From sequence record NC_073315.1: 43,947 nt of DNA; one strand, 5' to 3'. Shown here piece after piece: positions 20,187 to 38,508 of the stretch (position 1 is its first letter; each line of letters begins with the position of its first letter). The notes beneath the pieces are model-generated. The model was given only the letters and a program-made list of their open reading frames with translations, did not search any database and had not been told where the DNA came from. Made by a program: the position numbers and the translations under genes. This DNA comes from Escherichia phage vB_EcoS_fFiEco03.

Positions 20187-22732
20187 CATTACATTACACC
20201 CGTAACGAAGACGGTACTTTCGACCGCGAACGGCACAACGTACCGCCGATGGAATACGTCGTCGCTAACATCCCCGACGGGGTGCCTGTACGTATTTACC
20301 GTGGCGAGATCGGCGAGGACACGGAAGTAACTGAAGATTTCGAAGCGCTGAAAGAAGACGATGTTTTCCATATTATCGAAGGCGCTGGTGGCGGTGGCGG
20401 TTTTCTGGGTAAACTCCTGGACCCTTTGGGTGTGCTTAAATTTGTTACCAAGTTGATTTCTCCGTCGCAGAAAACGCCTAAAACGAGTTTAGCGAACCAG
20501 CAGGCTGAGTCCCCCAACAACAGCCTGACGGACCGAAACAATAAACCCCGTCCATATGAACGGTCGTATGATATTTGCGGCAGAGTCCAGACTATCCCTA
20601 ATGACCTCATGACTACCTATAAAATATTCGATGAATCTGGTCGCATTATTGAATACGGATACTACGATGCCGGTCGTGGGTATCTGGACATCAAGGCCGA
20701 AGATATTACCGACGGCGATACTAAGGTACAGGAGATTACGGGGACCTCTGTCGCGGTGTACGCGCCGTTTACATCCCCCAACAATACAAATACCCCGCAG
20801 CTTCTGGTGGGGGAACCTATCAATCAGAATCTTTATATAACTATCGCGTCTAATGAAGTAGATGGAGCCGTTCTTAAAGCCCAGAACGATATTCGGGTCA
20901 ACCCAAGCGACACGGGCCGCGTGAGATATGACTCTGCTACAAAAATTGGATACCTGTATGACGACACGGGGGATTCTGGCTTCGCGGAAATATTATCTGT
21001 TGGTGACACCGCGTCGTTCAATAACTTTGACGTTCCGGACGTAACAAATACCAACGGCAACTTTCGTGTTCTTTATGTCGATAACTTCGAGCTGCGGGTC
21101 GACACCGGCGGCGCGTCTAATTGGGCTGCTTTAGGCTCAACCACCTATTCACTTTCCCAGAGAAGTGACACGTGGGTAGGCCCCGTGGATACGTATGAAA
21201 GAACATTAACCGACTGGACCACCTTAAACCGCCTGGAAGTTGAACGCGTAGTAGCCAACATCGCTGCCGCTAACGGTATGTATAAAGACAACGGCAGTAA
21301 ATTGCGTACGTCGGTAACTATTGAACTCCAATACCAACTACTCGATGAAACCGGTGCCCCATACGGGAGTATCTATTCAAAACAGGCCGTTATATCTGGT
21401 CGGTCCGCCGACTACACCGGAGTTACTATTTACGCCGACTTGCCCATGAGGTCGAAAGTTAGGGTACGTGCCCGTCGTGTTACCAACCTGGACCTTGATT
21501 TCGAGGGCACCGTGGTAGACGAGGTTTCCTATATCAACCTTTACGGTCAGGTCCGTGACACTACGCCACATTACGGCAATCGTACTACCGTACACTCGGC
21601 ACGTAAGCAGACGCCGCGGGCCGCAGAGATTAAGCAACCACAGTTACGTATGGTCGCCACAGAGATGGTGTACAAATACCTCGGTAATGGTGTATTCGAC
21701 ACCGTAATGACACCGAATACTCAGGCCATTCAATCATTAATACGTCTCGCCCGTGACCCAGTAGTAGGTAATCTCAACCTAACAACATCCAATATGGACA
21801 AGTTGTTAGCGACTCAGACCGAGATTGAGAATTATTTCGGTAACGTGGAGGCGGGTCAATTCTGCTACACCTTTGACGATTATAAAACGACCATGCAGGA
21901 TATCATCAGCACAATAGCTGATGCTATTTTCTGCACTCCATATCGTAAAGGGCAAGACATATTACTGGATTTCGAGCGCCCGCGTATGGGGCCGGAAATG
22001 GTATTCACACATCGAAGTAAGACAACAGCTTCGGAAAAGTGGACGCGCACATTCAACGACGCTCAGGTATACGATAGTCTTAAGTTCTCCTACATCGACC
22101 CAGATACTAACGTAAAAGAGACCATCAGCATTCCCGCCGAGGGCGGTGTTAACACAGAAACGTATGACTCTAAAGGTATACGTAATTATCGTCAGGCGTA
22201 CTGGGCGGCGTACCGTCGGTACCAGAAGAACCTGTTGAAGAAGGTGACGGTATCATTCACGGCGACAGAAGAAGGGGTTTTTGTGCTTCCAGGACGGGCA
22301 ATAAGCGTAGTTAAAGGCTCGCGAGTAGCACCTCAAGATGGTTATGTCGTTGCCGTTAATGGGCTTACCCTTACTCTTTCTCAGCCGGTTACGTTTACTC
22401 CGGGGGATGACCACTCACTGATTCTTAAGAAGAGAGACGGCGGAGTTCAAAGTGTTGCCGTTGTTCAAGGAAGTCACGACCGTGAAGTGGTTATGCTATC
22501 TGCGCCACAGGAGGCAATTTACACAGGGAATAGCGCACTAAAAACTGAGTTTTCATTCGGTAACGAAGCAAGGCATAATGCTCAGATGATTCTTGTTTCT
22601 ACAGTTGACCCCGGAGACGACAGAACGGTTAAGATTACCGGGATTAACTATGAAGCAGATTTCTATAAATACGACGGCGTCGCGCCATACGGCAGCGGTT
22701 TCTCCGACGGATTCAGCGATGGTTTTAATTAA
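20177..22732 (+). CDS. Tail tip / central tail fibre protein (gpJ-like, possibly including an I-like N-terminus)
   Basis: Large ORF after the K-like gene; TTG start at 20177 with GGAG RBS (alternative ATG at 20249); Gly-rich GAGGGGG linker near the N-terminus. Confidence 0.65.
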   Translation: MALTLHYTRNEDGTFDRERHNVPPMEYVVANIPDGVPVRIYRGEIGEDTEVTEDFEALKEDDVFHIIEGAGGGGGFLGKLLDPLGVLKFVTKLISPSQKTPKTSLANQQAESPNNSLTDRNNKPRPYERSYDICGRVQTIPNDLMTTYKIFDESGRIIEYGYYDAGRGYLDIKAEDITDGDTKVQEITGTSVAVYAPFTSPNNTNTPQLLVGEPINQNLYITIASNEVDGAVLKAQNDIRVNPSDTGRVRYDSATKIGYLYDDTGDSGFAEILSVGDTASFNNFDVPDVTNTNGNFRVLYVDNFELRVDTGGASNWAALGSTTYSLSQRSDTWVGPVDTYERTLTDWTTLNRLEVERVVANIAAANGMYKDNGSKLRTSVTIELQYQLLDETGAPYGSIYSKQAVISGRSADYTGVTIYADLPMRSKVRVRARRVTNLDLDFEGTVVDEVSYINLYGQVRDTTPHYGNRTTVHSARKQTPRAAEIKQPQLRMVATEMVYKYLGNGVFDTVMTPNTQAIQSLIRLARDPVVGNLNLTTSNMDKLLATQTEIENYFGNVEAGQFCYTFDDYKTTMQDIISTIADAIFCTPYRKGQDILLDFERPRMGPEMVFTHRSKTTASEKWTRTFNDAQVYDSLKFSYIDPDTNVKETISIPAEGGVNTETYDSKGIRNYRQAYWAAYRRYQKNLLKKVTVSFTATEEGVFVLPGRAISVVKGSRVAPQDGYVVAVNGLTLTLSQPVTFTPGDDHSLILKKRDGGVQSVAVVQGSHDREVVMLSAPQEAIYTGNSALKTEFSFGNEARHNAQMILVSTVDPGDDRTVKITGINYEADFYKYDGVAPYGSGFSDGFSDGFN

Positions 22733-22744
22733 AGAGGACTCTAT

Positions 22745-24736
22745 ATGTCAAGCGGATGCGGTGACGTTTTAAGCCTGGCGGATTTACAAACCGCCAAGAA
22801 GCACCAGATTTTCGAAATCGAGGTTATCACCGGTAAAGCAGGCGGTGTAGCCGGTGGAGCAGATATTGATTATGCAACGAACCAGGTTACCGGGCAGACT
22901 CAAAAGACTCTGCCCGCCGTGTTGCGTGATACTGGTTTTTCTCCTGTATCGTGGGATTTCTCCACTGGCGGTACTCTTACTGTTAATGACCGTGACAAAG
23001 TTGTCTACGACCCTGTAAGTAAAACGTGGTATTCATACGCAGGTACGTTGCCGGTTGTAGTCCCCTCGGGCTTTGACCCGGTAGGCAACGCAGACTGGAA
23101 GCCACAGACTGACCATGATTTGCGTAATGATTTGGCGTCAAGTACCGCCGGTTTAGGGGCTTCACTGGTGTCTTTTTCCAACGGTAATACCGTTGAAACA
23201 TTATCCGACGCAGATGGCGCTAAGAACATCGGCAGTGGAGAAAGGACATTGCTTGAGCACAACAATGATGTTTTGCACTCAAAAGACTTCCCAACACTGC
23301 AGGCAGCTATAGATGCATCTTTGCAAAAAAATGATCTACTGGTGTCTCCTGGTAATTATACTGAAAACGTGACGCTTGGTAATGCGCAACTGAAAGGCGT
23401 AGGTGGTGCTACGGTAATAAAGCCACAAGGTGATTTTTCAACTGCAGTGATGGCAAAATTATCAACACCACATTGGCAATACAGGCATAGTTGTAATTTT
23501 GAAATAGACGGAACCGGTACAACTGGTTCTGTCGGTTTTGGTTATGACCCTACGGACCAGTACTCGGGTCGTCACAATCTAAGCGATACCTACATCCATC
23601 ACATTAATAAAGCAATTTCTAAACCTTCTGGAAATATTGGTAATACTTTTCGTAGTATAGGTATTAACAATTGTGACTGGGGATATCACGCCATCAGTGG
23701 TACAGAGATGCACTGTGGAGCAGACACTCTGTATAACTTCCATATGAATAGCATTAGTACTTACGCTGTGTATCTGAATGCAACTATAGGAGCATCCTCT
23801 ACAGGAGGGGGAATTGGTGGTTGGTGGTTAAAAGACTCTATTATTGAAGGCTCAGAAGGTGGCGGGGTATATCTTAAGAATAAGCCAGGAGATTGCCCAA
23901 GTGCACCGTGTGGAATATCAAATGTATGGTTTGAGGCCATAGCCACTGCTGATGCAGTAAATGTTGATGGTGCTGCTATAGAACCAAGAACTTTACATTT
24001 AATTGACACAAGCATTTTCTATGCTGAATATTCATACATAAACAGCATAAAATTAGAAAGGTCAAACCTTATAACATACGGCTGTCGTTTCGATAATGCC
24101 GATGGAAATCAGAGTATAGAGATAGATGCTGAGAGTACTATTAAGGCTTACGATACTTATCTTAATGGCACTCCCGGTAAAGATGTTATTGTTGAGAGTA
24201 TAGCTTCACAGACGGGTAAGCTTCACACCATTGACCTGTGTTTGAGGGGTTCTATTACAAAAGGCAGACTGTTTAATACTCCTTCGGGGAATAAGTTGGC
24301 AGCAATACCTTTTGATGACGGAACGCATACATGGGGCGGGAATGCTAGTGTAACAGGGACCCTGGTAGGTATGGGGCTTCATTCAAAAAATTGTGAATCA
24401 TTTACATTCCCCGCTAACGCTGTTCTGGAATTAACTGACTCCAAAGTCAATATCACCAGCGGTAAGTGGTATGTATGGGGCATTAATGCCAGACTTAATT
24501 CTGGTGATATGAATATGAGGATTACAGGGGGGATCACTTTGGGTAGTGTTTATCTCAAGCAAGGTGAATGGGTCAGTACATTTGGAGTTGCTCAGGCCGA
24601 GGCATCAGAATCTGCAACGTTATACGTTACAACTTCTTCTGCGAGTGTTGTATATCTTGCTGACTATTTTGTTGCTGAATTTGCATCTCAGAGTGAGGCA
24701 ATGGCTTTCGCAAATACCAGAATGTCGTTGGTCTAA
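22745..24736 (+). CDS. Tailspike protein (conserved N-terminal anchor plus beta-helix-like receptor-binding or depolymerase domain)
   Basis: 663 aa with AGAGGA RBS; N-terminus MSSGCGDVLSLADLQTAKKHQIFEIEV recalled as the Jersey-like tailspike anchor; C-terminal part AT-richer with repetitive beta-helix-like motifs. Confidence 0.75.
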   Translation: MSSGCGDVLSLADLQTAKKHQIFEIEVITGKAGGVAGGADIDYATNQVTGQTQKTLPAVLRDTGFSPVSWDFSTGGTLTVNDRDKVVYDPVSKTWYSYAGTLPVVVPSGFDPVGNADWKPQTDHDLRNDLASSTAGLGASLVSFSNGNTVETLSDADGAKNIGSGERTLLEHNNDVLHSKDFPTLQAAIDASLQKNDLLVSPGNYTENVTLGNAQLKGVGGATVIKPQGDFSTAVMAKLSTPHWQYRHSCNFEIDGTGTTGSVGFGYDPTDQYSGRHNLSDTYIHHINKAISKPSGNIGNTFRSIGINNCDWGYHAISGTEMHCGADTLYNFHMNSISTYAVYLNATIGASSTGGGIGGWWLKDSIIEGSEGGGVYLKNKPGDCPSAPCGISNVWFEAIATADAVNVDGAAIEPRTLHLIDTSIFYAEYSYINSIKLERSNLITYGCRFDNADGNQSIEIDAESTIKAYDTYLNGTPGKDVIVESIASQTGKLHTIDLCLRGSITKGRLFNTPSGNKLAAIPFDDGTHTWGGNASVTGTLVGMGLHSKNCESFTFPANAVLELTDSKVNITSGKWYVWGINARLNSGDMNMRITGGITLGSVYLKQGEWVSTFGVAQAEASESATLYVTTSSASVVYLADYFVAEFASQSEAMAFANTRMSLV

Positions 24737-24740
24737 AACT

Positions 24741-24766
24741 AAGGCCCCTTTCGGGGCCTTTTCTCT
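24741..24766. terminator. Bidirectional intrinsic terminator (identical copy of the 12820 hairpin)
   Basis: AAGGCCCC-TTTC-GGGGCCTT followed by TTCTCT; junction of the convergent tailspike and replication operons. Confidence 0.7.
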
Positions 24767-24902
24767 ATTCTTCTGATACCTTCTCCAGTATAAACGCCAG
24801 TTGCGCGTTAGCGGCATCTCTCTGTTGCCGTAGTCTTAGCACTTCCTCTTCAAGTTCCTTGATACGTTTTTGCAATGCCGGAATCGGGGCTATGATGTTC
24901 AT
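24765..24902 (-). CDS. Micro-ORF: 45-aa coiled-coil peptide
   Basis: Hand-translated (MNIIAPIPALQKRIKELEEEVLRLRQQRDAANAQLAFILEKVSEE); its ATG overlaps the upstream stop (ATGA); last gene of the - operon. Confidence 0.35.
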   Translation of the reverse strand: MNIIAPIPALQKRIKELEEEVLRLRQQRDAANAQLAFILEKVSEE

Positions 24903-25084
24903 TTCTTACCTTCGCTTTTCTTGAAACTGCGCTTTATGTCCGGCAGCGTGTAGCAGCGTGACTTTTCGTATTTACCGTCCGAGCTTACCAAGACAAAGCT
25001 GTTGCCGTCTTTTGATATGTACTCGATGGTGAAAGTATTGAATGAATGTACGCTGTATATTTCATCGCCAACATTAAGTTTCAT
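24899..25084 (-). CDS. Hypothetical protein, 61 aa
   Basis: ATGA-coupled to the helicase gene stop. Confidence 0.45.
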   Translation of the reverse strand: MKLNVGDEIYSVHSFNTFTIEYISKDGNSFVLVSSDGKYEKSRCYTLPDIKRSFKKSEGKK

Positions 25085-26505
25085 TTCTTACCTCGTCTCT
25101 TCATGTAATTAAGCAACTCTTCCTGGACCGATTTCTTCTCGTCTGTACGCGCGGCAACAACCTCATCCAGCGTGTCTTTAGCGACGATGTGGTACAGGAA
25201 CACCGGGCGCTCGTGGCCCGCCTGTTTCTGGCGGACTGGGCCTATGCGCTCAACAACCTGCAAATAGTGCTCAAGGTTCCAGCCTTGCGAGATGAACGCC
25301 AGATGATGACCCCCGTCCTGTAAATTCAAACCATGCCCGGCTGACGCAGGATGCACGCATAAAATCTCGATTTCCCCACGGTTCCACGCTTCCATCTGCT
25401 TGTTCCCCTTAGCGCCTTTGGCGAACGCCTGTGCCTGTGGGAATCGCTTAAGGATACGCTCCAGTTCGTGTTTAAACTGATAGGCTACCAGTAACGGTGC
25501 ACCCTGTAGCTCCTCAACAATGGACTCAAGCGCATCAAGTTTCGTGTCGTGCACTTTCTCCCAGTCTTTGGTTGCTTCTCCGTCCGGTCCCGATACATAC
25601 ACGGCACCAGATGCAATCTGCAAACACTTCGACGTCTTCGCCGCGGCGTTAGCAGCTTCAACTTCTCCGCTCTCCAGTTCCGCGAATAACTTCTCCTCCA
25701 TATCGATGTACGCCTGACGTGCTTTCTTCGGCAGGTCAATTTCAACCGGAACAATAATCGGCGCTTCACACCCGAACCACTCAGCGGCGTCAATCGTGAG
25801 ACTAATGTCCTTCATCTTCTGGTGAATCTCATTATCCGCCCCCGGGCGCGCATGATACTCTCGCGCCATCGCCGACTTACCTTTCTGGACAGAGTTAAAC
25901 CATCGGTCGGTGAATGCCGTGTATGAAGAACCGAGGCGCTCACCCGCGTCGATAAACCAGTTCTGGCCCCACAAGTCTTTTAGGCCGTTTGGTGACGGTG
26001 TGCCTGTAAGGTTAATGAAACGCTTAACCTTTCCGAACGCCACTTTGCTAAGCGCCTTTGCCCGCTTGCTACCACCTGAACGGCTGCGGAATGATTTTAG
26101 TTTCGTGCTTTCATCGGCGACAATAACCGTAAAAGGCCAGTCGTCTTTGCCGTAGTAGTCAATCAGCCACTCGATAACTTCGTAGTTGGTGCATACCACG
26201 TTAGCGTCCGACTCCAGCGCCGCGATGCGGCGCCTCTCGCTACCGGTCGCATCGACGACACTCAGACAAGGGAAACCCCACTTAGTTTGTTCTGCGGGCC
26301 ACGTACCGGATGCAACACGTAACGGGGCGAGGATTAACACGCGGTCCTCTTCCGTAAGCTGCCCGTTGCGGAACAGGCGGTTTAGAACCCACATTGTCGA
26401 CGAGGTCTTGCCGCCGCCCATACCGCACCAGATATTGCAACGTGGGTGCTGTAGCATAAACGACGTCATTATTTTCTGATATTCCCTGCGCCTAAACTTA
26501 CTCAT
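25081..26505 (-). CDS. Superfamily 2 (SNF2/DEAD-like) helicase
   Basis: Walker A GMGGGKTS, DExx-like VADESTK, and a helicase C-terminal-like region; 474 aa. Confidence 0.75.
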   Translation of the reverse strand: MSKFRRREYQKIMTSFMLQHPRCNIWCGMGGGKTSSTMWVLNRLFRNGQLTEEDRVLILAPLRVASGTWPAEQTKWGFPCLSVVDATGSERRRIAALESDANVVCTNYEVIEWLIDYYGKDDWPFTVIVADESTKLKSFRSRSGGSKRAKALSKVAFGKVKRFINLTGTPSPNGLKDLWGQNWFIDAGERLGSSYTAFTDRWFNSVQKGKSAMAREYHARPGADNEIHQKMKDISLTIDAAEWFGCEAPIIVPVEIDLPKKARQAYIDMEEKLFAELESGEVEAANAAAKTSKCLQIASGAVYVSGPDGEATKDWEKVHDTKLDALESIVEELQGAPLLVAYQFKHELERILKRFPQAQAFAKGAKGNKQMEAWNRGEIEILCVHPASAGHGLNLQDGGHHLAFISQGWNLEHYLQVVERIGPVRQKQAGHERPVFLYHIVAKDTLDEVVAARTDEKKSVQEELLNYMKRRGKK

Positions 26506-26999
26506 GCCTTGAACTCCCCGAAGTATATTTCCGCGGCTCTTTGGTATACGCGCGACGCTTCTTCTATAGTATCAAAATAGCCAAGGTGGATGTATTTGTT
26601 ATTGACGCCTATTCTGGCGCGCCACCTGCCAGAGGGTATTTGGTAAACCCCTATCGCGCCGCTAGTGTTATGTGATGAGCAGTCTCGGTTCTGAATCTGC
26701 TGGCTCCTGGTTGCTGGCCTTATATTATTTATGGCGTTATTAGCCCTGTTACGGTCTTTATGGTCAAGCTCACCATTATGATATTCTCCGTAGACGAAAG
26801 CCCATGCCAGATGGTGGGCTTTTATTCTTACACCGGAGACTGTAATAACTATGTATCCTTTGTCGTTTGGCCCTCCGGCTACCTCCCCCGCATTTCTCCC
26901 TTTTATGCTTACTTTTCGTGTAAATATACCGGTTTCGGGGTCATAGTTAAGAAGACGTTTCGCCTCCTCAATATCAGGCCTTCTTGTTAATTTGTTCAT
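26502..26999 (-). CDS. HNH homing endonuclease with C-terminal AP2 domain
   Basis: HNH_3-like GYIVITVSGVRIKAHHLAWAFVYGEYHNGELDHKDRNRANNAINNIR followed by AP2-like GAIGVYQIPSGRWRARIGVNNKYIHLGYFDTIEEASRVY; AT-richer than flanks. Confidence 0.8.
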   Translation of the reverse strand: MNKLTRRPDIEEAKRLLNYDPETGIFTRKVSIKGRNAGEVAGGPNDKGYIVITVSGVRIKAHHLAWAFVYGEYHNGELDHKDRNRANNAINNIRPATRSQQIQNRDCSSHNTSGAIGVYQIPSGRWRARIGVNNKYIHLGYFDTIEEASRVYQRAAEIYFGEFKA

Positions 27000-27187
27000 T
27001 TCAGCACCAGAACTAACTCTTTACGCCCGAACGCCGTAACGTTACCGGTTACGTCTTCGATAACCAGTTTACCGTTCGACTCGACGAACACCGTATCAAC
27101 GGCAACAGGGCGACGGGTCTTAACGTTGAAAATCATGTCGCCCGGTACGATGTCACGTGCTGGTTTGCGGTCATATTCGTGTTTCAT
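26996..27187 (-). CDS. Hypothetical protein, 63 aa
   Basis: AAGGA RBS; first gene downstream of the 27221 promoter. Confidence 0.5.
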   Translation of the reverse strand: MKHEYDRKPARDIVPGDMIFNVKTRRPVAVDTVFVESNGKLVIEDVTGNVTAFGRKELVLVLK

Positions 27188-27217
27188 TTCTCAATTCCTT
27201 ATATTGTTGGTGTAGGG

Positions 27218-27502
27218 CTAACTATAATAGTTCGCTATTAGGTCGTCAACCTGTTTGAACGACCCGACGACAAAAACATTCGCGCCGCGTTTGCGCATAC
27301 GCTCATGCTCACGTAACTGGTGTGGGTCTGGCTTCGTGTTTTCGTCTTTCTTAACCTCGACGAACCAGACGATACCGTTGGGGAGAATTACCAGCAGGTC
27401 GGGGGCGCCGGAACGCCCCTCGTAGGAAAGTTTACGAACGAGGCCGCCGATAGCCTCGAATCGCTCTTTTGCGTATTTCTGGATGCGCCCCTCTTTAGTC
27501 AT
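27218..27502 (-). CDS. VRR-NUC domain nuclease (putative)
   Basis: 94 aa from ATG 27502 (ATGA-coupled); pattern G.PDLLVILPNGIVWFVEVKK...Q consistent with a VRR-NUC PD-(D/E)xK core (recalled). Confidence 0.55.
   Translation of the reverse strand: MTKEGRIQKYAKERFEAIGGLVRKLSYEGRSGAPDLLVILPNGIVWFVEVKKDENTKPDPHQLREHERMRKRGANVFVVGSFKQVDDLIANYYS
27221..27249 (-). promoter_or_regulatory. Sigma70-like promoter, class II (TTGACG-N17-TATAGT), embedded in the 3' end of the VRR-NUC gene
   Basis: On the - strand: TTGACG, spacer ACCTAATAGCGAACTAT, TATAGT. Same design as the promoters at 30954 and 33569. Confidence 0.55.
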
Positions 27503-27651
27503 GAGCGCAGAACCCAAGTTATAAACGCCCCGCCTAAAATGGCAACACCAACAAACTTAAAGAACAGGCCATAACAGAACATCGCGGCTATTCCTGCGCC
27601 GAGTAGCAGTGCGAGCATGGTTACTATCGTCCAAAATACAAACATTGTCAT
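27499..27651 (-). CDS. Micro-ORF: 50-aa two-TM membrane peptide
   Basis: Hand-translated MTMFVFWTIVTMLALLLGAGIAAMFCYGLFFKFVGVAILGGAFITWVLRS; ATGA overlaps at both ends. Confidence 0.4.
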   Translation of the reverse strand: MTMFVFWTIVTMLALLLGAGIAAMFCYGLFFKFVGVAILGGAFITWVLRS

Positions 27652-27737
27652 AATACGCACCCCTCACGTTTCGTATGCTCAATCCCGCAGCGCGGACAGA
27701 TTCGGCAGTCTTCTTCGTAGAACCAGTAAATTTTCAT
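27648..27737 (-). CDS. Micro-ORF: 29-aa Cys-rich (zinc-ribbon-like) peptide
   Basis: MKIYWFYEEDCRICPRCGIEHTKREGCVL; ATGA overlaps at both ends. Confidence 0.3.
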   Translation of the reverse strand: MKIYWFYEEDCRICPRCGIEHTKREGCVL

Positions 27738-27865
27738 TCCAGCACCCACAGATAAATTGCGATGAACATACCCAGTACGGCGGTCATCATGTCGTATTGA
27801 CCCTCGTGGTAGTAGACACCGGCTGCGAATCCCGCCAGTACTGCAATAATCAGTTTACTTGGCAT
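27734..27865 (-). CDS. Micro-ORF: 43-aa membrane peptide
   Basis: MPSKLIIAVLAGFAAGVYYHEGQYDMMTAVLGMFIAIYLWVLE; strong CAGGAG RBS; start overlaps the 3' end of the DNA polymerase gene. Confidence 0.4.
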   Translation of the reverse strand: MPSKLIIAVLAGFAAGVYYHEGQYDMMTAVLGMFIAIYLWVLE

Positions 27866-30056
27866 AACGTTTTAACTCCTGACCTTCCGCTACAAGAGGG
27901 AACCCCTCCGCCCACTCTGGCAACGCACACATTAATTTTTCCAGTTCAGCCACCGTGTAATCCGGCGTATCTGGAGTTTCACATACCAGTTCATCGTGTA
28001 CCGAAAGCACGATGGGATACCCGCCACCCTCAACATTAATCATCGCATATGCGAGTAAATCACGGCACAGCGCCTGAACAATGTTTTCGCAGGCTTTGCC
28101 GCCGTGTGTGTACAGGGTAGTCCATTGGCGGGTTAACTGGTTTTCACCTTGGTACTTGATTCGCACATTCGTGTTTACCCGTCCGTCTTCGTCTGTTTCT
28201 TTTGTCACGCTAACGCCGATTCCTGGATACGAGAGGATACGGCCCGACGGCAACTCCATACACAACCACCAACCGGGAACCTTCCTACCGGATGAATCGG
28301 TTTCTACTGTTCTCCAGATTCGGATAGCGCGCTCGCCATTCTTGCGCAGATGCGCCCCCGCCCAAAATTCACGACCCGGATTTCTTACAGCGGCTAAAAT
28401 ACCGTCTTTGAGGTCGCGCCAGAACGCTACTGTTTCCGGGTGTGACTCGCGCCACATACGCTTGATTGCGTCGCAGGTGCGCCACACTTTCTTGTCCAGA
28501 ATATACGATGGTCGGTCATCCTTCTCACCTGGATGCGGGGGGCGCTTGGCTTCCTGGATGCGCGCCCATTCATATCCTCTCGCGGTGGCCGACCAGATGT
28601 GGTCCGGGAATGTACCGTCCATTGTTTTAGCCATCTCAATAAGGTCGAGGCCTAAGTTTTTGGCGAACGTAACGAATGCTCCGACGCCTCCCTCGTAGCC
28701 GAGGCCCAGTTCGCATGCTTTGCCTATCTGTCTGATTTCCTTAAAGTTTTTCTTAATATCGTCGGGGTCCATGCCAAACATCTTACCTGCAGTTACGCAA
28801 TAAATATCCAACCCGGCGCGGAAAGTATCAAGCGCGGTTTCTTCGCCTGCCAACCACGCAAGCCCACGACCCTCAACGTTAGAGTAATCGGCAACAACAA
28901 ACTTATGCCCCACTTCCGGTATGATGCAGCTACGTACCGTCGATGCCGTTAGCTTGGCTACATCAAAACGGCGGTGTGCCCGGCCTTTAAGTAACGCTGA
29001 AATGCCTTTATCCAGTTCATCATCGTGATAGTACCCGCGCGCCAGGTTCTGTGGTTGGAAGCCTTTACCCGCCCACCGCAAAGTGCGTTTTGCCCCACCG
29101 TACTGTAAACAACCCCGGCGGCGGTCGTCCGATGAGCGGCCCAACAGCAGTGGGTTATATTTCGTTGACGCGGTGGACGCGGCCCCGAGGCGCATTTCGA
29201 TAATTGTGCGTGCGTCGTCCGGTAAATCATCGTCCGCCAGCAGGTCGTTAAGCGTCGACTTCTGTGCGTTGTGTATGCGGTGTGCAGGGGCGAGTTCACG
29301 AAGAATCGGCAGAAAGTCCTTACCAGTAAGCGAGCCGCCGTATTTGCGTTGGGCTTCCTCCTGTAACTGCGCTTTGTGTTTCTCCACGGCTTCAATAGCG
29401 GCTTCCGCCAGTGCAACGTCAACCTTAAACCCGCGGTCGTTGATTAACTGGTCCAGTTCCAGTACACGGTCCTCGAACTCGGAGTTACCCCAACGCGGCA
29501 GCTTATGGAAGACTTCACGCATCGCAGTGATGTCGCTCACGGCGTACTTGATGAACAGCGCCCACTCATCAGGGTGTGTTTCGGCGGTGTAGCGTCTGAT
29601 TTTGTAGTTCTTCGGCGTCGGCTTAGAGAAACGCTGAATCAGCGCCTTGCCGCGTTTATCTTTTGCATTGTCAGCAGACACGCCAAGCACTTCACACAGC
29701 GCATCAAGTGAACCCGGCAGCGCGTGACGAAACGCCCAAATCATCGTATCAATGGTGTTGCTTACCGGAATATCAAAGTCCCAACAGTGCTTCATGATGA
29801 GCCTGTCGAACATTGATCCGTTGTGCCATACCATCTTAATGCGACTGTTTGGCTTAACCAGGCGGCGTAACGCACGATGCAAATCACCCGGCATGTCGCT
29901 GCCGTCGGTGCAATCCCATACCCGCACAGGCTCGTCGTCAAAAGCATATGTGCAGATAAGCACTTCGGTAGTCGGGTGTTCGGCGTAAGCGTAGGAGCCG
30001 ACTTTCTTTAAATCTGCTTCGGAGAATGTTTCAAAGTCCAGGTATAAGTAGCTCAT
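27855..30056 (-). CDS. DNA polymerase, family A (with 3'-5' exonuclease domain)
   Basis: Exo motifs YLYLDFETFS and HNGSMFD, polymerase motif SVHDELV; start placed at ATG 30056 (AAGGA RBS, ATGA-coupled to the upstream micro-ORF) rather than the ORF-track 30110. Confidence 0.85.
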   Translation of the reverse strand: MSYLYLDFETFSEADLKKVGSYAYAEHPTTEVLICTYAFDDEPVRVWDCTDGSDMPGDLHRALRRLVKPNSRIKMVWHNGSMFDRLIMKHCWDFDIPVSNTIDTMIWAFRHALPGSLDALCEVLGVSADNAKDKRGKALIQRFSKPTPKNYKIRRYTAETHPDEWALFIKYAVSDITAMREVFHKLPRWGNSEFEDRVLELDQLINDRGFKVDVALAEAAIEAVEKHKAQLQEEAQRKYGGSLTGKDFLPILRELAPAHRIHNAQKSTLNDLLADDDLPDDARTIIEMRLGAASTASTKYNPLLLGRSSDDRRRGCLQYGGAKRTLRWAGKGFQPQNLARGYYHDDELDKGISALLKGRAHRRFDVAKLTASTVRSCIIPEVGHKFVVADYSNVEGRGLAWLAGEETALDTFRAGLDIYCVTAGKMFGMDPDDIKKNFKEIRQIGKACELGLGYEGGVGAFVTFAKNLGLDLIEMAKTMDGTFPDHIWSATARGYEWARIQEAKRPPHPGEKDDRPSYILDKKVWRTCDAIKRMWRESHPETVAFWRDLKDGILAAVRNPGREFWAGAHLRKNGERAIRIWRTVETDSSGRKVPGWWLCMELPSGRILSYPGIGVSVTKETDEDGRVNTNVRIKYQGENQLTRQWTTLYTHGGKACENIVQALCRDLLAYAMINVEGGGYPIVLSVHDELVCETPDTPDYTVAELEKLMCALPEWAEGFPLVAEGQELKRYAK

Positions 30057-30208
30057 TTCTTTTTCCTTAAATCCAGTGCCTTCGTTTCGCTGAGTCTTAT
30101 TTTCATACAATCACGGCAAATCCACACATGCCTGTACCCGGCGCGGTACTCATCCGCGTACCACGGAAGCGGTTTCATATATCGGTATACGTGCTTACAG
30201 AAAAACAT
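30053..30208 (-). CDS. Micro-ORF: 51-aa Cys/His-containing (zinc-ribbon-like) protein coupled to the polymerase start
   Basis: MFFCKHVYRYMKPLPWYADEYRAGYRHVWICRDCMKIRLSETKALDLRKKK; its stop overlaps the polymerase ATG. Confidence 0.4.
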   Translation of the reverse strand: MFFCKHVYRYMKPLPWYADEYRAGYRHVWICRDCMKIRLSETKALDLRKKK

Positions 30209-30221
30209 TATTTTCGACCCT

Positions 30222-30247
30222 TAGTAAAAAGGCCCAATGAAGGGCCT
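30222..30247 (-). terminator. Intrinsic terminator after the SSB-like gene (- strand)
   Basis: AGGCCC-TTCATT-GGGCCT followed by TTTTT when read on the - strand. Confidence 0.55.
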
Positions 30248-30267
30248 CAGTTAAATTGATTCAGATA

Positions 30268-30900
30268 TTAACGGCGACGACGTTCGCGGCGAGGTGCTTC
30301 ATCTTTTTCATCGTCATCGTCTTCCAGGTCATTGACGCTTGCGGCGACTTTAGAACCACCAAACGCTTTACCTTCGCCAACATATTTAATTGCCAGCAGG
30401 TTAACGCCTAGAACTTTATATTTCTGGCTGAACCAGATTTCAACGCTTACATTAGCTACGCAGCCACTGTAAACCTGTTCACCTTCAATCTGTTCGCCGT
30501 CTACGTTGAAGTCCTGCTCCACCTGAGTCTCACCTTTTTTAGAGGTTACAATCAGCGGCTGCTTCTGCGCCTTCGCTTTGAAGTAGAAGCCTTCTGGGAA
30601 GTCTTCAAACGGGTTATCACGCTCAGCAATGTCTTTAATCGCGCATTTATCCATGTGCTTACCTTCGCCGTAGTTGGACTTCATCCACTTCTCGGCAGCG
30701 GCTGCGCCTAACGCTTCTTCAACTACAGCGTAGACAGTGTCGTAGAGCGCGTCGATTTGCGCGTGGTCAGACGGCAGGATTATAGTCGCGCTGTACTGGC
30801 CTTTAGTGATGGAGCCATCATCGTTTTCACGGTCTTTTTCGCGTTCGAATACGTTAACCCATGCAGTGTTTACTTTACGCAGATTCAGTTTAATACCCAT
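30268..30900 (-). CDS. Putative ssDNA-binding protein (DUF2815-like)
   Basis: 210 aa, acidic Asp/Glu-rich C-terminal tail; position between the Cas4-like nuclease and the polymerase, as in modules where DUF2815 pairs with DUF2800 (recalled). Confidence 0.5.
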   Translation of the reverse strand: MGIKLNLRKVNTAWVNVFEREKDRENDDGSITKGQYSATIILPSDHAQIDALYDTVYAVVEEALGAAAAEKWMKSNYGEGKHMDKCAIKDIAERDNPFEDFPEGFYFKAKAQKQPLIVTSKKGETQVEQDFNVDGEQIEGEQVYSGCVANVSVEIWFSQKYKVLGVNLLAIKYVGEGKAFGGSKVAASVNDLEDDDDEKDEAPRRERRRR

Positions 30901-30953
30901 CGTGATTTCTCGCTTTTCAGTTTACTCCGGGAACTGCCCGGCCAGTGATTAGA

Positions 30954-30982
30954 ACTATAATAGCTAACTATTCAGGTGTCAA
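30954..30982 (-). promoter_or_regulatory. Sigma70-like promoter, class II (TTGACA-N17-TATAGT)
   Basis: On the - strand: TTGACA, spacer CCTGAATAGTTAGCTAT, TATAGT; upstream of the SSB-like gene. Confidence 0.6.
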
Positions 30983-30986
30983 CACT

Positions 30987-32261
30987 TTATTCTAAATCTT
31001 CTTCACTAACACGACTCCACTCAGGCCGTTTGTCGCCCGCCGTTGTGATGCATGGGGCACCTGGTTTACGTGTGATGAAGTCTTTCAGTTCTTCTTCCGG
31101 CACAACTTTAACCGCTTCGGTCGGCGTCATGAGCACTTCTTTAGTCAGCTTGTCGCCGTAGAGTTCTGTTACTTTCTCCGCGTCTTTCCACGCACGATTG
31201 CCCATCTTACCTTCAACCAGCTTGTACCCAGGAACTTTCTTACCGGAATGCAACGCGGCAGCCATAGCTTTCTCAACCTTGTCGATGTGCTGGCGCAACA
31301 ACGGCAACTTCTCGTACTCAGCTACGAGTTCCTCCGGCGTAAGTTCCAGCGCAAAGTCGTCCTCCAGTTCTTCCGCCAGTACATCGTTAACGGTTTTTGT
31401 ACGCGCGGCGCATTGTTCAGAGAACCGACACCACTGACAACCATCGACCGACGGCTTAAAGTCAGACGCTTTCAGGTTCTTCTTGCCGCGGGAATAGGCA
31501 TCGAGCGCTAACAGTGCTCGTTTTTGTGCAAACTTAGCGAACAGTTCAAGGCCTTCAACCGAGATGTCCCACTCCGACGCACCGCCCGCGTACGGCTGGA
31601 AGATAACCAGACGGACCACGGTGATGTTATAACGTCTCTTGAGTCTGCGATAAACACCGAGAGCGTAAAGCATAAGCTGCTTGTTTTCTTTCGCTTCGAC
31701 ACGATGCCGACCCGTTTTAAGGTCGCCAATAATGAGCATGTACTCGTCGGTGTTAGCCAGTTCCTGAACGGCAACAAGGTCAGCCGTTCCGAACGTCTCT
31801 AAATCATCTTCCTCGCCTTCTTCACCTTCAACGGGTACTTTGTACCCGGGGTGTAGAATCTGCGTAAGATTGATACGCATTTCCAGCTTGGCGTAAGTCG
31901 CTACATCAATAATCGCTTTGCAGTAGTCGGTATACTTTTGCACCTGCTCAATCATGTCCGCCGTAATCAGTACCGCGCCTTTCATCGGGCTGATTAGCGC
32001 CTTAATCTGGCCTTTACCCTCATCCAGCACGTAAGCACCGACTTCACGCTCTAGCGGCAACGCAGTTCCGCGGATATAGGCGTTGAGATGGACCTCAGCT
32101 ATTGTGTGCATAGCTGTGCCTAATACAGCAGCTTTACCGGACGTGTTAGGGATATCTTTTTCACAGGCAAGTGATGCGGCGCAACTTAGCCACTTTTTAG
32201 CGCCTGACGGCGACAGTAATGCGTGAACATCGTTATTGCCGCCGCGTTCCTTTAAAATCAT
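30987..32261 (-). CDS. PD-(D/E)xK exonuclease, Cas4/RecB-like (DUF2800-like) with Cys cluster
   Basis: Start at ATG 32261 (ATGA-coupled); C-terminal CQWCRFSEQC plus N-terminal Cys; IIGDLKTGR and QLMLYALG motifs. Confidence 0.65.
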   Translation of the reverse strand: MILKERGGNNDVHALLSPSGAKKWLSCAASLACEKDIPNTSGKAAVLGTAMHTIAEVHLNAYIRGTALPLEREVGAYVLDEGKGQIKALISPMKGAVLITADMIEQVQKYTDYCKAIIDVATYAKLEMRINLTQILHPGYKVPVEGEEGEEDDLETFGTADLVAVQELANTDEYMLIIGDLKTGRHRVEAKENKQLMLYALGVYRRLKRRYNITVVRLVIFQPYAGGASEWDISVEGLELFAKFAQKRALLALDAYSRGKKNLKASDFKPSVDGCQWCRFSEQCAARTKTVNDVLAEELEDDFALELTPEELVAEYEKLPLLRQHIDKVEKAMAAALHSGKKVPGYKLVEGKMGNRAWKDAEKVTELYGDKLTKEVLMTPTEAVKVVPEEELKDFITRKPGAPCITTAGDKRPEWSRVSEEDLE

Positions 32262-32530
32262 ACTCTGTTCTCCCACTGGTCAATTAAATGTCGTGTCTTA
32301 TGGTCGCAGTGCATAGCCCACCCATACATCGACTCGAAGACATAAAAGTCAGGTTTGGCGAAAGTCGTGCGCTTAATCTGCGACACGTGGCGGCCTATAT
32401 CTTTAGGCCGGGGTGCTTTGCCTAAGTACGCCATCTCTTCCATCTGGTGCGCACCGGACGGCGCACGCAACAGCCATAGCGACTCTGTGTTGTCTCGCCT
32501 GTCTACGGCGCGGTAGAGTTGGTAAATCAT
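32258..32530 (-). CDS. Hypothetical protein, 90 aa
   Basis: Tightly coupled ORF in the replication operon. Confidence 0.5.
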   Translation of the reverse strand: MIYQLYRAVDRRDNTESLWLLRAPSGAHQMEEMAYLGKAPRPKDIGRHVSQIKRTTFAKPDFYVFESMYGWAMHCDHKTRHLIDQWENRV

Positions 32531-32829
32531 TTATCCACCTCATGCATTCTCAAGAAGACAATCATAGCGGCGCGTAGAGGGTTTTCGTGCGTACTTTTGG
32601 TGAACGAGGCGGAGTGATACGCTCTATATGTGAACGTATGCCGGTTAACCGTAACGCATTCAATTGATATGTGATTATCAATTATTATAGGCCATGCGTC
32701 CTCCACCCGATTACAATAATCGACTCCTCCGGAAGCTAATTCCATCTGATGCCCCCGCGAAACATTTCCGTATAGCGCGCGGCTGACACGTGCATTGATT
32801 TCTATGTCTGTTAAATTTCCGTAGTTCAT
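32527..32829 (-). CDS. Hypothetical protein, 100 aa
   Basis: ORF with ATGA coupling to the downstream gene. Confidence 0.5.
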   Translation of the reverse strand: MNYGNLTDIEINARVSRALYGNVSRGHQMELASGGVDYCNRVEDAWPIIIDNHISIECVTVNRHTFTYRAYHSASFTKSTHENPLRAAMIVFLRMHEVDK

Positions 32830-32872
32830 AATTCCGACCCTCAGTTAAAGCGGCCCGAAGGCCGCGGGATAG

Positions 32873-33361
32873 TTATTCTTCTTCGAAATACTTGTTCTTG
32901 ATTGCCGTCAGGCGTTCCAGATACTCCGCCAGGTCTTCGTCTTTAATCGCGGCAATCTTCATCTTCTTACCGGTGAACTCTTCCAGCAGTTCATCGGAAT
33001 CATCGCACGCGGCTTCGCTCGGGCCTTCATTAATTGCATCGTCGATGGCCTGAATCTGGTCACGCAGAGACTTGTAATCGACTTCTTCTTTCTCTTCTTC
33101 CGGTTCTGGCGTAGGCTCCTCTACTTTAGGTTTACGCGGCTTGCGCTTCGGCTTCTCTTCTTCTGCTGGTTTAGTGTCAACGGTGTCTTCACCTTCTACC
33201 GGGATTTCTTTCGTTACTTCTTTCGCAACAACATCACGAACACTATCTGCGATGTTTGCATCTGCCTTAAGTTCATACACAGGTTGTTTCACGCTGTTCG
33301 CTGCAATCAGTTCATGCGCAACTACGAAACGTTCCAGTAATTTTAAGAATTGGTCTAACAT
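32873..33361 (-). CDS. Hypothetical acidic protein, 162 aa
   Basis: AGGAG RBS; Glu/Lys/Pro-rich low-complexity central region. Confidence 0.5.
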   Translation of the reverse strand: MLDQFLKLLERFVVAHELIAANSVKQPVYELKADANIADSVRDVVAKEVTKEIPVEGEDTVDTKPAEEEKPKRKPRKPKVEEPTPEPEEEKEEVDYKSLRDQIQAIDDAINEGPSEAACDDSDELLEEFTGKKMKIAAIKDEDLAEYLERLTAIKNKYFEEE

Positions 33362-33376
33362 TATTTGTTCTCCTGT

Positions 33377-33538
33377 TTATTTTGACTCTTGAATCATTGC
33401 TTGCCAGATAAAACAAACGGCGTCTGACAGTTGCTCTTCATCGACTTCATCCTCGAGGCCTGGTATTACGTCGAGCAGTTGGTCTATACCCGCTTTTAGC
33501 ATCTCTTCTGTCGGTATTACGTCTACGCTGAACTTCAT
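33377..33538 (-). CDS. Micro-ORF: 53-aa acidic protein
   Basis: Hand-translated MKFSVDVIPTEEMLKAGIDQLLDVIPGLEDEVDEEQLSDAVCFIWQAMIQESK; GGAGAG RBS; first gene after the 33569 promoter. Confidence 0.4.
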   Translation of the reverse strand: MKFSVDVIPTEEMLKAGIDQLLDVIPGLEDEVDEEQLSDAVCFIWQAMIQESK

Positions 33539-33568
33539 TTTATCTCTCCTCTCGTTTGGTATGGGCTA

Positions 33569-33597
33569 ACTATAATAGCGAACTATTCACATGTCAA
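33569..33597 (-). promoter_or_regulatory. Sigma70-like promoter, class II (TTGACA-N17-TATAGT), divergent from the Cro-like gene
   Basis: On the - strand: TTGACA, spacer TGTGAATAGTTCGCTAT, TATAGT. Confidence 0.6.
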
Positions 33598-37168: not shown

Positions 37169-37360
37169 ATGTATAAGAAGGGGCAGTTGGCGACGACGAA
37201 ACGCGGTGGGCAGTACGTAATAGTGTTGCAGGACGAGAACGAGTATGACGAGGATAATATAGTCGAAGTATGGGGCCTGGTAAGAAAGAAACCCGGGTTC
37301 GCCTTACGCGATAATCTGGAATTAATTGGCAACAATTTTAAATTCAAAGGGGTGAAGTGA
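37169..37360 (+). CDS. Hypothetical early protein, 63 aa
   Basis: ORF with GAGGAG RBS downstream of the 37107 promoter. Confidence 0.5.
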   Translation: MYKKGQLATTKRGGQYVIVLQDENEYDEDNIVEVWGLVRKKPGFALRDNLELIGNNFKFKGVK

Positions 37361-37563
37361 TGGAAGAATTATTTGAAGAACTGAAACACCATAGATTAAT
37401 AGAAGTTAATTTCACAATTAAACGATACGCGATTGTCACACTTGATGATGAAGAAATTTCAACATCATCACCGGAGATGCTGGTTAAACTCCTGCGCTCC
37501 TTACGAACGGCATCGAATCATGATGCCCGTGCCGACGACTCTGAGGGAGGTTGCCGTGAATGA
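37357..37563 (+). CDS. Hypothetical protein, 68 aa
   Basis: Start/stop-overlapping ORF. Confidence 0.45.
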   Translation: MMEELFEELKHHRLIEVNFTIKRYAIVTLDDEEISTSSPEMLVKLLRSLRTASNHDARADDSEGGCRE

Positions 37564-37835: not shown

Positions 37836-37895
37836 TTACCCGTTTATTTTAATCGTCAGCGCCGTTTATGAGGCGCACGCGTTGTGGGGGCTGGT

Positions 37896-38087: not shown

Positions 38088-38090
38088 TTT

Positions 38091-38234: not shown

Positions 38235-38237
38235 GAT

Positions 38238-38429: not shown

Positions 38430-38472
38430 TGTTATATTGTAACAATAGTTTGGGATTTTACTGAGTGACTTA

Positions 38473-38508
38473 CGCTGCTACACAGCAGCGTATCATTTTT
38501 CTCATTTT
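38473..38508 (+). terminator. Intrinsic terminator
   Basis: CGCTGCT-ACAC-AGCAGCG followed by TATCATTTTTCTCATTTTT. Confidence 0.65.

What the first reader, a model, noticed from the sequence alone, without database searches (positions are those of the whole stretch)
24765..33538. Pervasive ATGA start/stop overlaps in the replication operon
At least ten consecutive gene junctions in the - strand operon (and many in the + strand early block) use the 4-nt ATGA overlap. This implies tight translational coupling and helps to choose starts (the DNA polymerase, Cas4-like nuclease and VRR-NUC starts all differ from the longest ORF).
Basis: seen in the sequence. Interest (0 to 1): 0.25.

Follow-up and report, generated by a model that had tools for sequence, protein, structure and literature searches.

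The report
Ordinary ATGA start/stop overlaps in phage
Ten of the sixteen gene junctions in this phage's replication gene block share the four bases ATGA between one gene's stop and the next gene's start, a real and non-random pattern, but it is the commonest and best-known way bacteria and phages pack genes, so it is ordinary.

Summary
The window is a whole ~44 kb Kagunavirus genome (an E. coli siphophage of the Guernseyvirinae). The minus-strand block 33538..24765 tiles into 17 ORFs with 16 junctions. Exactly 10 junctions are 4-nt ATGA overlaps, against 1.8 expected in shuffles (maximum 6 of 500).

They are not ten consecutive junctions. They come in runs of 2, 1, 3 and 4, separated by five gaps and one 11-nt overlap. 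Four of the five gaps hold three near-identical sigma70-like promoters and two hairpins, so the block is not one simple operon.

The three corrected starts are supported by relatives: pol ATG 30056, Cas4-like ATG 32261 and VRR-NUC ATG 27502. Relatives have an in-frame stop just upstream, or no alternative start. Shine-Dalgarno strength favours the ATG for pol and Cas4, but not for VRR-NUC.

Starts at these overlaps carry Shine-Dalgarno motifs as strong as ordinary starts. The overlaps are enriched in the replication block (10/16) and the early block (10/22 including 2 GTGA) over the late block (3/23).

Translational coupling is plausible but only inferred, and neutral compaction is a live rival. 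This -4 spacing is described as by far the commonest in prokaryotes.

One side observation: accessory genes, including an HNH-AP2 homing endonuclease, are swapped in exactly ATGA-to-ATGA.

Verdict: real, already known, low interest.

The parts
32527..32530 (-). ATGA overlap: NinX-like gene (32527-32829) stop / 90-aa ORF (32258-32530) start
   Evidence: SD GAGGTGG upstream, -7.9 kcal/mol. Pfam NinX for the upstream gene. PHROG end-to-end match for the downstream ORF.
32258..32261 (-). ATGA overlap: 90-aa ORF stop / Cas4-like DUF2800 PD-(D/E)XK nuclease (30987-32261) start
   Evidence: SD GGGAGA, -7.3, against +0.4 for GTG 32276. Four relatives lack any alternative upstream start.
30053..30056 (-). 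ATGA overlap: 51-aa ORF (30053-30208) stop / family A DNA polymerase (27855-30056) start
   Evidence: Jerseyvirus relatives have TAA directly before the homologous ATG. The 51-aa ORF is the least supported gene: no PHROG hit and no informative substitutions.
27855..27865 (-). 11-nt overlap (not ATGA): pol stop TAA / 43-aa membrane-like ORF (27734-27865) start
   Evidence: PHROG match 1-43 of 43.
27734..27737 (-). ATGA overlap: 43-aa ORF stop / 29-aa Cys-rich ORF (27648-27737) start
   Evidence: The 29-aa ORF is conserved in six relatives, with a third-position excess of 10/10/40. Weak SD, -3.7.
27648..27651 (-). ATGA overlap: 29-aa ORF stop / 50-aa hydrophobic ORF (27499-27651) start
   Evidence: (SD GAGGGG, -8.5).
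27499..27502 (-). ATGA overlap: 50-aa ORF stop / VRR-NUC nuclease (27218-27502) start
   Evidence: Weak SD, -3.1, while TTG 27517 has -7.1. The ATG is present in every relative examined and the TTG is not.
26996..26999 (-). ATGA overlap: 63-aa ORF (26996-27187) stop / HNH_3+AP2 homing endonuclease (26502-26999) start
   Evidence: Weak SD, -2.8.
26502..26505 (-). ATGA overlap: HNH endonuclease stop / SNF2-type helicase (25081-26505) start
   Evidence: SD GGGGAG lies inside the HNH 3' end, -7.6.
25081..25084 (-). ATGA overlap: helicase stop / 61-aa ORF (24899-25084) start. Lies inside one copy of the direct repeat AGGTAAGAAATGAA.
24899..24902 (-). ATGA overlap: 61-aa ORF stop / 45-aa coiled-coil ORF (24765-24902) start. 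Lies inside the second copy of the repeat.
   Evidence: Third-position excess 24/12/94 for the 45-aa ORF.
33566..33597 (-). Promoter-like site P1 (TTGACA-17-TATAGT, 11/12) ahead of the first ORF (33377-33538)
   Evidence: Consensus match only.
30951..30982 (-). Promoter-like site P2 (TTGACA-17-TATAGT, 11/12) in the 86-nt gap before the Enc34-type ssDNA-binding protein gene (30268-30900)
   Evidence: The same pattern occurs once in each Jerseyvirus relative L004 and L005 and two or three times in each Kagunavirus relative.
27218..27249 (-). Promoter-like site P3 (TTGACG-17-TATAGT, 10/12) in the last 32 nt of the VRR-NUC gene. The element's last three bases are the gene's TAG stop.
30226..30247 (-). 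Terminator-like hairpin GAGGCCC-UUCAUU-GGGCCUU plus a U run, in the 59-nt gap after the ssDNA-binding protein gene
32850..32865 (-). Hairpin GCGGCC-UUCG-GGCCGC in the 43-nt gap before the NinX-like gene
24741..24760 (.). Strong hairpin between the converging tailspike gene and the end of the minus-strand block (terminator-like, z -4.7)

Best explanation
This is the normal compact gene layout of the early and replication module of a Guernseyvirinae phage. Between a few regulatory gaps, each gene's TGA stop shares two bases with the next gene's ATG (-4 spacing, ATGA).

Shown:
- The overlaps exist and are far above chance.
- The flanking ORFs are mostly real genes.
- The ATGs at the overlaps are the conserved starts.
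- Seven of the ten ATGs are preceded by a Shine-Dalgarno motif embedded in the 3' end of the upstream gene.
- Four of the five gaps contain promoter-like or hairpin signals; the 15-nt gap holds only a Shine-Dalgarno motif.

Inferred:
- A ribosome translating the upstream gene promotes initiation at the overlapping AUG. It could do so by opening local RNA structure for a new 30S subunit, or by re-initiating after termination.
- In this way many small accessory ORFs and the replication enzymes are expressed from about three promoters, without needing intergenic space.
- The three starts with weak SD (HNH endonuclease, VRR-NUC, the 29-aa ORF) would depend most on this coupling.
For: - Count: 10 of 16 junctions are ATGA. 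Shuffles give a mean of 1.78 and a maximum of 6 in 500.
- Relatives: annotated relatives across the subfamily show the same architecture, with 4-9 ATGA overlaps per 10-19 junctions, and every -4 overlap is ATGA.
- SD strength: -4 starts have a median of -6.6 kcal/mol, against -6.3 for ordinary starts and -2.5 for 667 internal ATGs (Mann-Whitney p = 1e-10).
- Accessibility: start regions at -4 overlaps are slightly less accessible in silico (unpaired probability 0.445 vs 0.524, p = 0.015).
- Small ORFs: they show a third-codon-position excess of substitutions and end-to-end PHROG matches.
- Starts: confirmed by relatives.
- Block bias: replication 10/16 against late 3/23, Fisher p = 0.002. This fits the published link between wide spacing and high expression or internal promoters and terminators (PMC1480536).
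[quoted passage not shown] Four of five E. coli -4 pairs were translationally coupled, and SD removal reduced re-initiation in four of five (PMC6728339).
Against: - No expression data exist for this phage, so coupling is inferred from layout only.
- Seven of ten starts have good SD motifs and could initiate independently.
- One of five tested E. coli -4 pairs (bioBF) was not coupled (PMC6728339).
- -4 spacing is 'not exceptional' for coupling, and its abundance is ascribed to ease of evolution (PMC12548453).
- The accessibility difference is small and comes from in silico folding.
- The 51-aa ORF upstream of pol has no independent support as a gene.
Confidence: 0.7

Rival explanations
1. Neutral compaction. 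The ATGA overlaps are a by-product of deletion bias and of how easily the motif arises, since a start codon already supplies three of the four bases. Selection against longer overlaps then keeps them. Each gene is translated from its own Shine-Dalgarno site, and coupling contributes little.
For: [quoted passage not shown]
- Brown and Wade say the abundance is likely due to ease of evolution (PMC12548453).
- SD motifs at -4 starts are as strong as at free-standing starts.
- The 63-aa ORF / helicase junction is ATGA in Jerseyviruses but a +2 gap in fFiEco02 and a -8 overlap in Bas71 and SCS44, so the spacing is not fixed.
- A at the +4 position is not otherwise preferred: 15 of 50 non-overlapping starts, against 27% A at codon position 1.
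Against: - Overlaps are about five times more frequent in the replication and early blocks than in the late block of the same genome. Uniform deletion bias alone does not predict this.
- Three ATGA starts have poor SD motifs (-2.8, -3.1, -3.7) and would be badly translated on their own.
- Four of five E. coli -4 pairs tested were coupled (PMC6728339).
Confidence: 0.25
2. Partial artefact. Several of the tiny ORFs (29-61 aa) are not genes, so some 'junctions' are chance ATGA sites, and the true number of overlaps between real genes is much smaller.
For: - Three ATGA sites inside genes pass the same ORF filter: 32962, 29795 and 25815.
- The 51-aa ORF before pol has no PHROG or Pfam hit and no informative substitutions.
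- The 43-aa and 61-aa ORFs have few substitutions to judge by.
- PHROG families are built from predicted proteins, not from observed ones.
Against: - The 29-, 50-, 63-, 90- and 45-aa ORFs show a clear third-position excess (10/10/40, 13/4/26, 12/9/65, 19/11/70, 24/12/94).
- Nine of ten small or uncharacterised ORFs match PHROG families, eight of them over their whole length.
- The ORFs tile the strand without leaving room for alternatives.
- Four junctions involve only ORFs with independent support, that is a Pfam domain or a clear third-position excess: 90-aa/Cas4-like, 50-aa/VRR-NUC, 63-aa/HNH and HNH/helicase.
Confidence: 0.05

Closest known systems
-4 nt (NTGA) start/stop overlaps of co-directional prokaryotic gene pairs, with translational coupling (Huber et al. 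2019, PMC6728339; Huber et al. 2023, PMC10666635; Brown & Wade 2025, PMC12548453)
   Same: Identical motif and geometry. An SD motif lies inside the upstream ORF. The host is E. coli, in which coupling was shown for 4 of 5 such pairs.
   Different: [quoted passage not shown] Coupling has not been measured for any of these pairs.
Free-standing homing endonuclease genes of T4-like phages placed between conserved genes, e.g. mobE, whose AUG overlaps the nrdA stop as UAAUGA (Edgell, Gibb & Belfort 2010, PMC2988022)
   Same: The HNH-AP2 gene at 26502-26999 sits between two conserved genes and has no promoter-like site of its own. Its start overlaps the upstream stop. It is present or absent among close relatives.
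   Different: Both ends here are -4 ATGA overlaps, so the insert is seamless on both sides. Its endonuclease activity and target site are unknown.
Replication modules of Kagunavirus, Jerseyvirus and other Guernseyvirinae phages (fFiEco02, fPoEco01, K1ind2, Bas71, Salmonella phage pink)
   Same: Same gene order. Nucleotide identity over this block is 86-94% to the listed Kagunavirus records and about 80-83% to Jerseyvirus records. The same ATGA junctions are annotated in the relatives.
   Different: The cassette content of the variable slots differs. The window has an HNH gene before the helicase, where relatives have nothing or a cytosine methyltransferase.
ATGA overlaps in the nin regions of lambdoid phages (recalled from my own knowledge, not checked here)
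   Same: Runs of small early genes joined by overlapping start and stop codons, interpreted as coupling. A NinX-like gene is present in this block.
   Different: Different phage group.

Membership tests
-4 nt NTGA overlapping, translationally coupled gene pairs | Co-directional neighbours whose TGA stop and NTG start share the tetranucleotide NTGA | tested here: met
   Ten junctions, all ATGA.
-4 nt NTGA overlapping, translationally coupled gene pairs | Both ORFs of each pair are real protein-coding genes | tested here: inconclusive
   Met for most: Pfam domains, third-position excess and PHROG matches. There is no independent support for the 51-aa ORF 30053-30208. Substitution data are thin for the 43-aa and 61-aa ORFs.
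-4 nt NTGA overlapping, translationally coupled gene pairs | Shine-Dalgarno motif within the 3' end of the upstream ORF | tested here: met
   Seven of ten have duplex energy at or below -5.3 kcal/mol. Three are weak (-2.8, -3.1, -3.7). Internal ATGs have a median of -2.5.
-4 nt NTGA overlapping, translationally coupled gene pairs | Both genes lie on one transcript | tested here: inconclusive
   The strongest promoter-like and hairpin signals fall in or next to the non-overlap gaps. Weaker 9/12 promoter matches do lie near two overlaps (32553-32526, 27651-23), and these are consensus scans only, with no transcript data.
-4 nt NTGA overlapping, translationally coupled gene pairs | Translation of the downstream gene depends on translation of the upstream gene | not testable with these tools
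   This needs reporter fusions with premature stops, or ribosome profiling of infected cells.
Kagunavirus (Guernseyvirinae) replication module | Nucleotide similarity and gene order shared with named members | tested here: met
   86-94% identity over 77-84% of the 10-kb query to the Kagunavirus records listed, among 458 matching records in all. The gene order is the same.
Free-standing HNH homing endonuclease gene | HNH nuclease domain plus a DNA-binding domain | tested here: met
   Pfam HNH_3 at 6.7e-10 and AP2 at 2.8e-08, both above their cut-offs.
Free-standing HNH homing endonuclease gene | Presence or absence between the same two conserved genes in close relatives | tested here: met
   Absent in L001, L004, L005 and L006. 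A 64%-identical homologue lies at the same place in the Klebsiella phage L007.
Free-standing HNH homing endonuclease gene | Cleaves the endonuclease-free allele and spreads by gene conversion | not testable with these tools
   The only hint is that helicase codons 5-11 diverge immediately after the insert.

The most novel reading that the evidence does not exclude
The ATGA overlaps may act as seamless docking points for accessory-gene cassettes.

In at least three slots of this module, relatives carry different genes or none: between the 90-aa ORF and Cas4, before the helicase, and after the helicase. In those slots sequence homology breaks exactly at ATGA on both sides. In a fourth slot, before pol, unrelated genes all end at pol's ATGA.

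A cassette that begins with ATGA and is inserted at an ATGA restores the upstream stop and the downstream start. The newcomer also joins the existing translation chain without needing a promoter.

The 14-nt exact direct repeat AGGTAAGAAATGAA that flanks the 61-aa ORF would then mark recombination between SD+ATGA junction sequences.
Probability: 0.2. Interest if true: 0.35.

Novelty: already known. Interest (0 to 1): 0.12.

Why it matters
The main value is practical. In this genome the overlaps, backed by relatives, give the right starts for pol, the Cas4-like nuclease and VRR-NUC, where a longest-ORF rule would add 18, 5 and 5 spurious residues.

The layout also shows which genes have no strong Shine-Dalgarno motif of their own and would depend most on upstream translation: the HNH endonuclease, VRR-NUC and the 29-aa ORF. 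It also shows that the 'operon' is really several promoter-delimited segments.

It does not open a new question, because -4 overlaps and their link to coupling are textbook material. The cassette-docking pattern is a tidy illustration of phage mosaicism at nucleotide resolution. It is probably explained by survivorship.

Tried and rejected
- General preference for A after the start codon. I tested whether this explains the ATGA motif and rejected it. Only 15 of 50 non-overlapping starts have A at +4, which equals the 27% A at codon position 1.
- SD strength as an independent arbiter of the three disputed starts. It works for pol and Cas4 but points the wrong way for VRR-NUC. There I relied on conservation and on the substitution pattern, which follows the frame of the upstream 50-aa ORF.
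- My own coding-potential gene caller. It missed several small ORFs: the NinX-like gene, the 51-aa ORF and the 29-aa ORF. I therefore did not use it alone. The genome-wide map combines it with annotation transferred from fPoEco01.
- Known RNA elements in the gaps. Rfam and ARAGORN found nothing in the window.
Neither affected the results.
- Literature on coupling or proteomics in Kagunavirus. I found only genome descriptions.
- Cassette boundaries as evidence for a recombination mechanism. I did not adopt this, because with a 4-nt overlap any viable insertion must recreate a stop and a start, so exact ATGA boundaries are expected from survivorship.


Full report
**What the window is.** BLAST of three parts of the window against GenBank phages finds 457-533 matching records. 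Most are Salmonella and Escherichia siphophages of the subfamily Guernseyvirinae. The best matches are Kagunavirus members (fFiEco02, fPoEco01, Snoke, Ivi) at 92-98% identity. The window starts at the large terminase gene and ends inside the small terminase gene, as in fPoEco01. It is therefore a whole genome of about 44 kb. GC skew changes sign at about 24.7 kb and 36.7 kb, matching a minus-strand block between two plus-strand blocks.

**Checking the observation.** On the minus strand between 33538 and 24765 the ORFs tile into 17 genes with 16 junctions.
- Ten junctions are 4-nt ATGA overlaps. The A of the ATG lies at 32530, 32261, 30056, 27737, 27651, 27502, 26999, 26505, 25084 and 24902.
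- The other six are gaps of 15, 43, 86, 59 and 30 nt and an 11-nt overlap between the pol stop and the next ATG.
- The count of ten is therefore right, but 'ten consecutive' is not. The runs are 2, 1, 3 and 4.
- An annotation-free count of ATGA sites that close one ORF and open another (at least 25 codons each) gives 13 in the real sequence: the ten junctions plus three sites inside genes. Dinucleotide-preserving shuffles give a mean of 1.78 and a maximum of 6 in 500.
- ATGA occurs 61 times on the coding strand of the block. An order-2 Markov model expects 47, and the opposite strand has 23.

**Genome-wide context.** I built a gene map by transferring the fPoEco01 annotation with tblastn and filling in with ORFs. 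It has 66 same-strand junctions, of which 23 are ATGA and 2 are GTGA overlaps.

| Block | -4 overlaps / junctions |
|---|---|
| Replication (minus strand, 24765..33538) | 10 / 16 |
| Early (plus strand, 37169..43278) | 8 ATGA + 2 GTGA / 22 |
| Late structural (plus strand, 1..24736) | 3 / 23 |

- Replication against late gives Fisher p = 0.002.
- Small-gene starts in the early block are less certain than those in the replication block.

**Are the ORFs genes?** Pfam identifies the following:
- a NinX-like protein
- a DUF2800 PD-(D/E)XK (Cas4-like) nuclease
- an Enc34-type ssDNA-binding protein
- a family A DNA polymerase with a 3'-5' exonuclease domain
- VRR-NUC (below its cut-off, but annotated as such in relatives)
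- an HNH_3+AP2 endonuclease
- an SNF2-type helicase

Evidence for the small ORFs:
- Nine of ten small or uncharacterised ORFs match PHROG families, eight of them from residue 1 to the end.
- In ungapped comparisons with relatives, substitutions concentrate at third codon positions. The counts at positions 1/2/3 are 10/10/40 for the 29-aa ORF, 13/4/26 for the 50-aa ORF, 12/9/65 for the 63-aa ORF, 19/11/70 for the 90-aa ORF and 24/12/94 for the 45-aa ORF.
- The 51-aa ORF before pol has no such support. The 43-aa and 61-aa ORFs have little.

**Are the ATGs the true starts?**
- All proteins with relatives align from residue 1 or 2 in the closer (Kagunavirus and Jerseyvirus) relatives, at the annotated start coordinates; in the three most distant loci pol aligns from residue 4.
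- Pol: three Jerseyviruses lack the upstream 51-aa ORF and have TAA immediately before the homologous ATG. No longer form of pol is possible there.
- Cas4-like nuclease: four relatives have no alternative start upstream. In those four the nearest in-frame stop lies 2, 6 or 21 codons upstream.
- VRR-NUC: the ATG is present in all five relatives whose start I examined. The TTG five codons upstream is CTG in Bas71 and missing in the Klebsiella phage. Differences in that stretch are mostly silent in the frame of the upstream 50-aa ORF and mostly replacement in the VRR-NUC frame.
- SD duplex energies favour the ATG for pol (-6.1 against -3.1) and for Cas4 (-7.3 against +0.4). They do not favour it for VRR-NUC (-3.1 against -7.1).
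The VRR-NUC case rests on conservation alone.

**Anatomy of the block.**
- SD motifs: starts at -4 overlaps have motifs as strong as ordinary starts (median -6.6 against -6.3 kcal/mol) and far stronger than 667 internal ATGs (-2.5; p = 1e-10).
- Weak SD: three ATGA starts are weak, namely the HNH endonuclease, VRR-NUC and the 29-aa ORF.
- Gaps: four of the five carry signals; the 15-nt gap holds only a Shine-Dalgarno motif.
  - Three near-identical sigma70-like promoters of the form TTGAC[AG]-N14-CTATTATAGTTAG lie at 33597-33566, 30982-30951 and 27249-27218. The last sits in the final 32 nt of the VRR-NUC gene.
  - A terminator-like hairpin with a U run follows the ssDNA-binding protein gene.
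  - A UUCG-loop hairpin precedes the NinX-like gene.
  - A strong hairpin ends the block.
- The promoter pattern recurs in the Kagunavirus and two Jerseyvirus relatives, two or three times per Kagunavirus locus and once per Jerseyvirus locus.
- The 'operon' is therefore several segments, and the ATGA runs are what lies between regulatory gaps. This matches the published observation that wide spacings within operons go with internal promoters and terminators and with high expression (PMC1480536).

**Mechanism.**
- In E. coli, four of five native -4 pairs were translationally coupled, and removing the SD reduced re-initiation in four of five (PMC6728339).
- How coupling works is disputed. RRF depletion did not change coupling, which argues for de novo initiation after the upstream ribosome unfolds the mRNA rather than re-initiation (PMC7538156).
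- In this window the start regions at -4 overlaps are slightly less accessible in silico (0.445 against 0.524 unpaired, p = 0.015). That is weakly in line with the unfolding model.
- None of this demonstrates coupling here. The neutral-compaction view (PMC1480536, PMC12548453) remains a serious rival. The five-fold difference between early or replication genes and late genes is what it explains least well.

**Comparison with relatives.** Annotated relatives show the same design.

| Group | ATGA overlaps / junctions |
|---|---|
| Kagunavirus (three phages) | 8 of 15, 9 of 16, 8 of 16 |
| Jerseyvirus (three phages) | 7 of 13, 4 of 10, 4 of 10 |
| Klebsiella phage VLCpiS11a | 7 of 19 |
| Cornellvirus VSiP | 6 of 18 |
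| Dhillonvirus SM_S22 | 4 of 19 |

Every -4 overlap in these annotations is ATGA.

**Side observation on cassettes.**
- Relative to Salmonella phage Kenya-K22, the HNH-AP2 gene is a 494-nt insertion lying exactly between two ATGA. The flanks read ...CTGGTGCTGAA ATGA | insert | ATGA GTAAGTTT....
- The same exact ATGA-to-ATGA boundaries appear for an extra gene between the 90-aa ORF and Cas4 in SCS44 and pink.
- They also appear for the 61-aa ORF against a 171-aa gene after the helicase.
- Five unrelated genes upstream of pol all end on pol's ATGA.
- A 14-nt exact repeat, AGGTAAGAAATGAA, flanks the 61-aa ORF.
- Free-standing endonuclease genes whose start overlaps the upstream stop are already described in T4 (PMC2988022).
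- With no intergenic slack, only insertions that rebuild a stop and a start can survive. I therefore regard this mainly as survivorship.

**Verdict.** The pattern is real and significant, and it is useful for start calling. The words 'consecutive' and 'operon' overstate it, and coupling is inferred rather than shown. It is a textbook feature of prokaryotic and phage genomes and is already annotated in relatives, so novelty is nil and interest is low.

Noticed in passing
window 33566-33597, 30951-30982, 27218-27249 (minus strand); also 2775-2790, 4895-4910, 14661-14676, 33617-33631, 37122-37137, 38601-38616: A palindromic motif, AATAG-N4-CTATT(A), occurs at about ten places against 0.5 expected. 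In three near-identical sigma70-like promoters it sits between the -35 and -10 elements. It looks like the operator of a phage regulator that controls many promoters.
   Followed up: partly
window 26502-26999 (minus strand): An HNH_3+AP2 homing-endonuclease gene is inserted exactly ATGA-to-ATGA between the 63-aa ORF and the helicase. It is absent in fFiEco02 and the Jerseyviruses and is replaced by a cytosine methyltransferase in Bas71 and SCS44. Helicase codons 5-11 diverge right after it, as expected near a homing site.
   Followed up: partly
window 24898-24911 and 25080-25093 (minus strand): A 14-nt exact direct repeat, AGGTAAGAAATGAA (SD plus ATGA), flanks the 61-aa ORF. Relatives carry a 171-aa or a 73-aa gene in the same slot.
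   Followed up: partly
L010 (fPoEco01) 27185-30283 versus window 27855-30056: The DNA polymerase of fPoEco01 is 1032 aa against 733 aa here. The match stops at residue 448, suggesting an intein or endonuclease insertion in that relative and none in the window.
   Followed up: no
window 9742-10101 and 10098-10493 (plus strand): fPoEco01 annotates these two ORFs as a programmed-frameshift fusion. In the window the second ORF begins with an ATGA overlap and could simply be a separate gene.
   Followed up: no
window 32527-32829 (minus strand); L001 8960-9258: The NinX-like gene is intact here: Pfam covers residues 2-95 of 100. In fFiEco02 it is split across two frames, and it is annotated from an internal ATG in fFiEco02 and fPoEco01.
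   Followed up: no
window 36750-37168: A gene-free stretch of about 420 nt lies between the diverging minus-strand and plus-strand blocks and contains GC-rich hairpins. It has no Rfam match and was not examined further.
   Followed up: no
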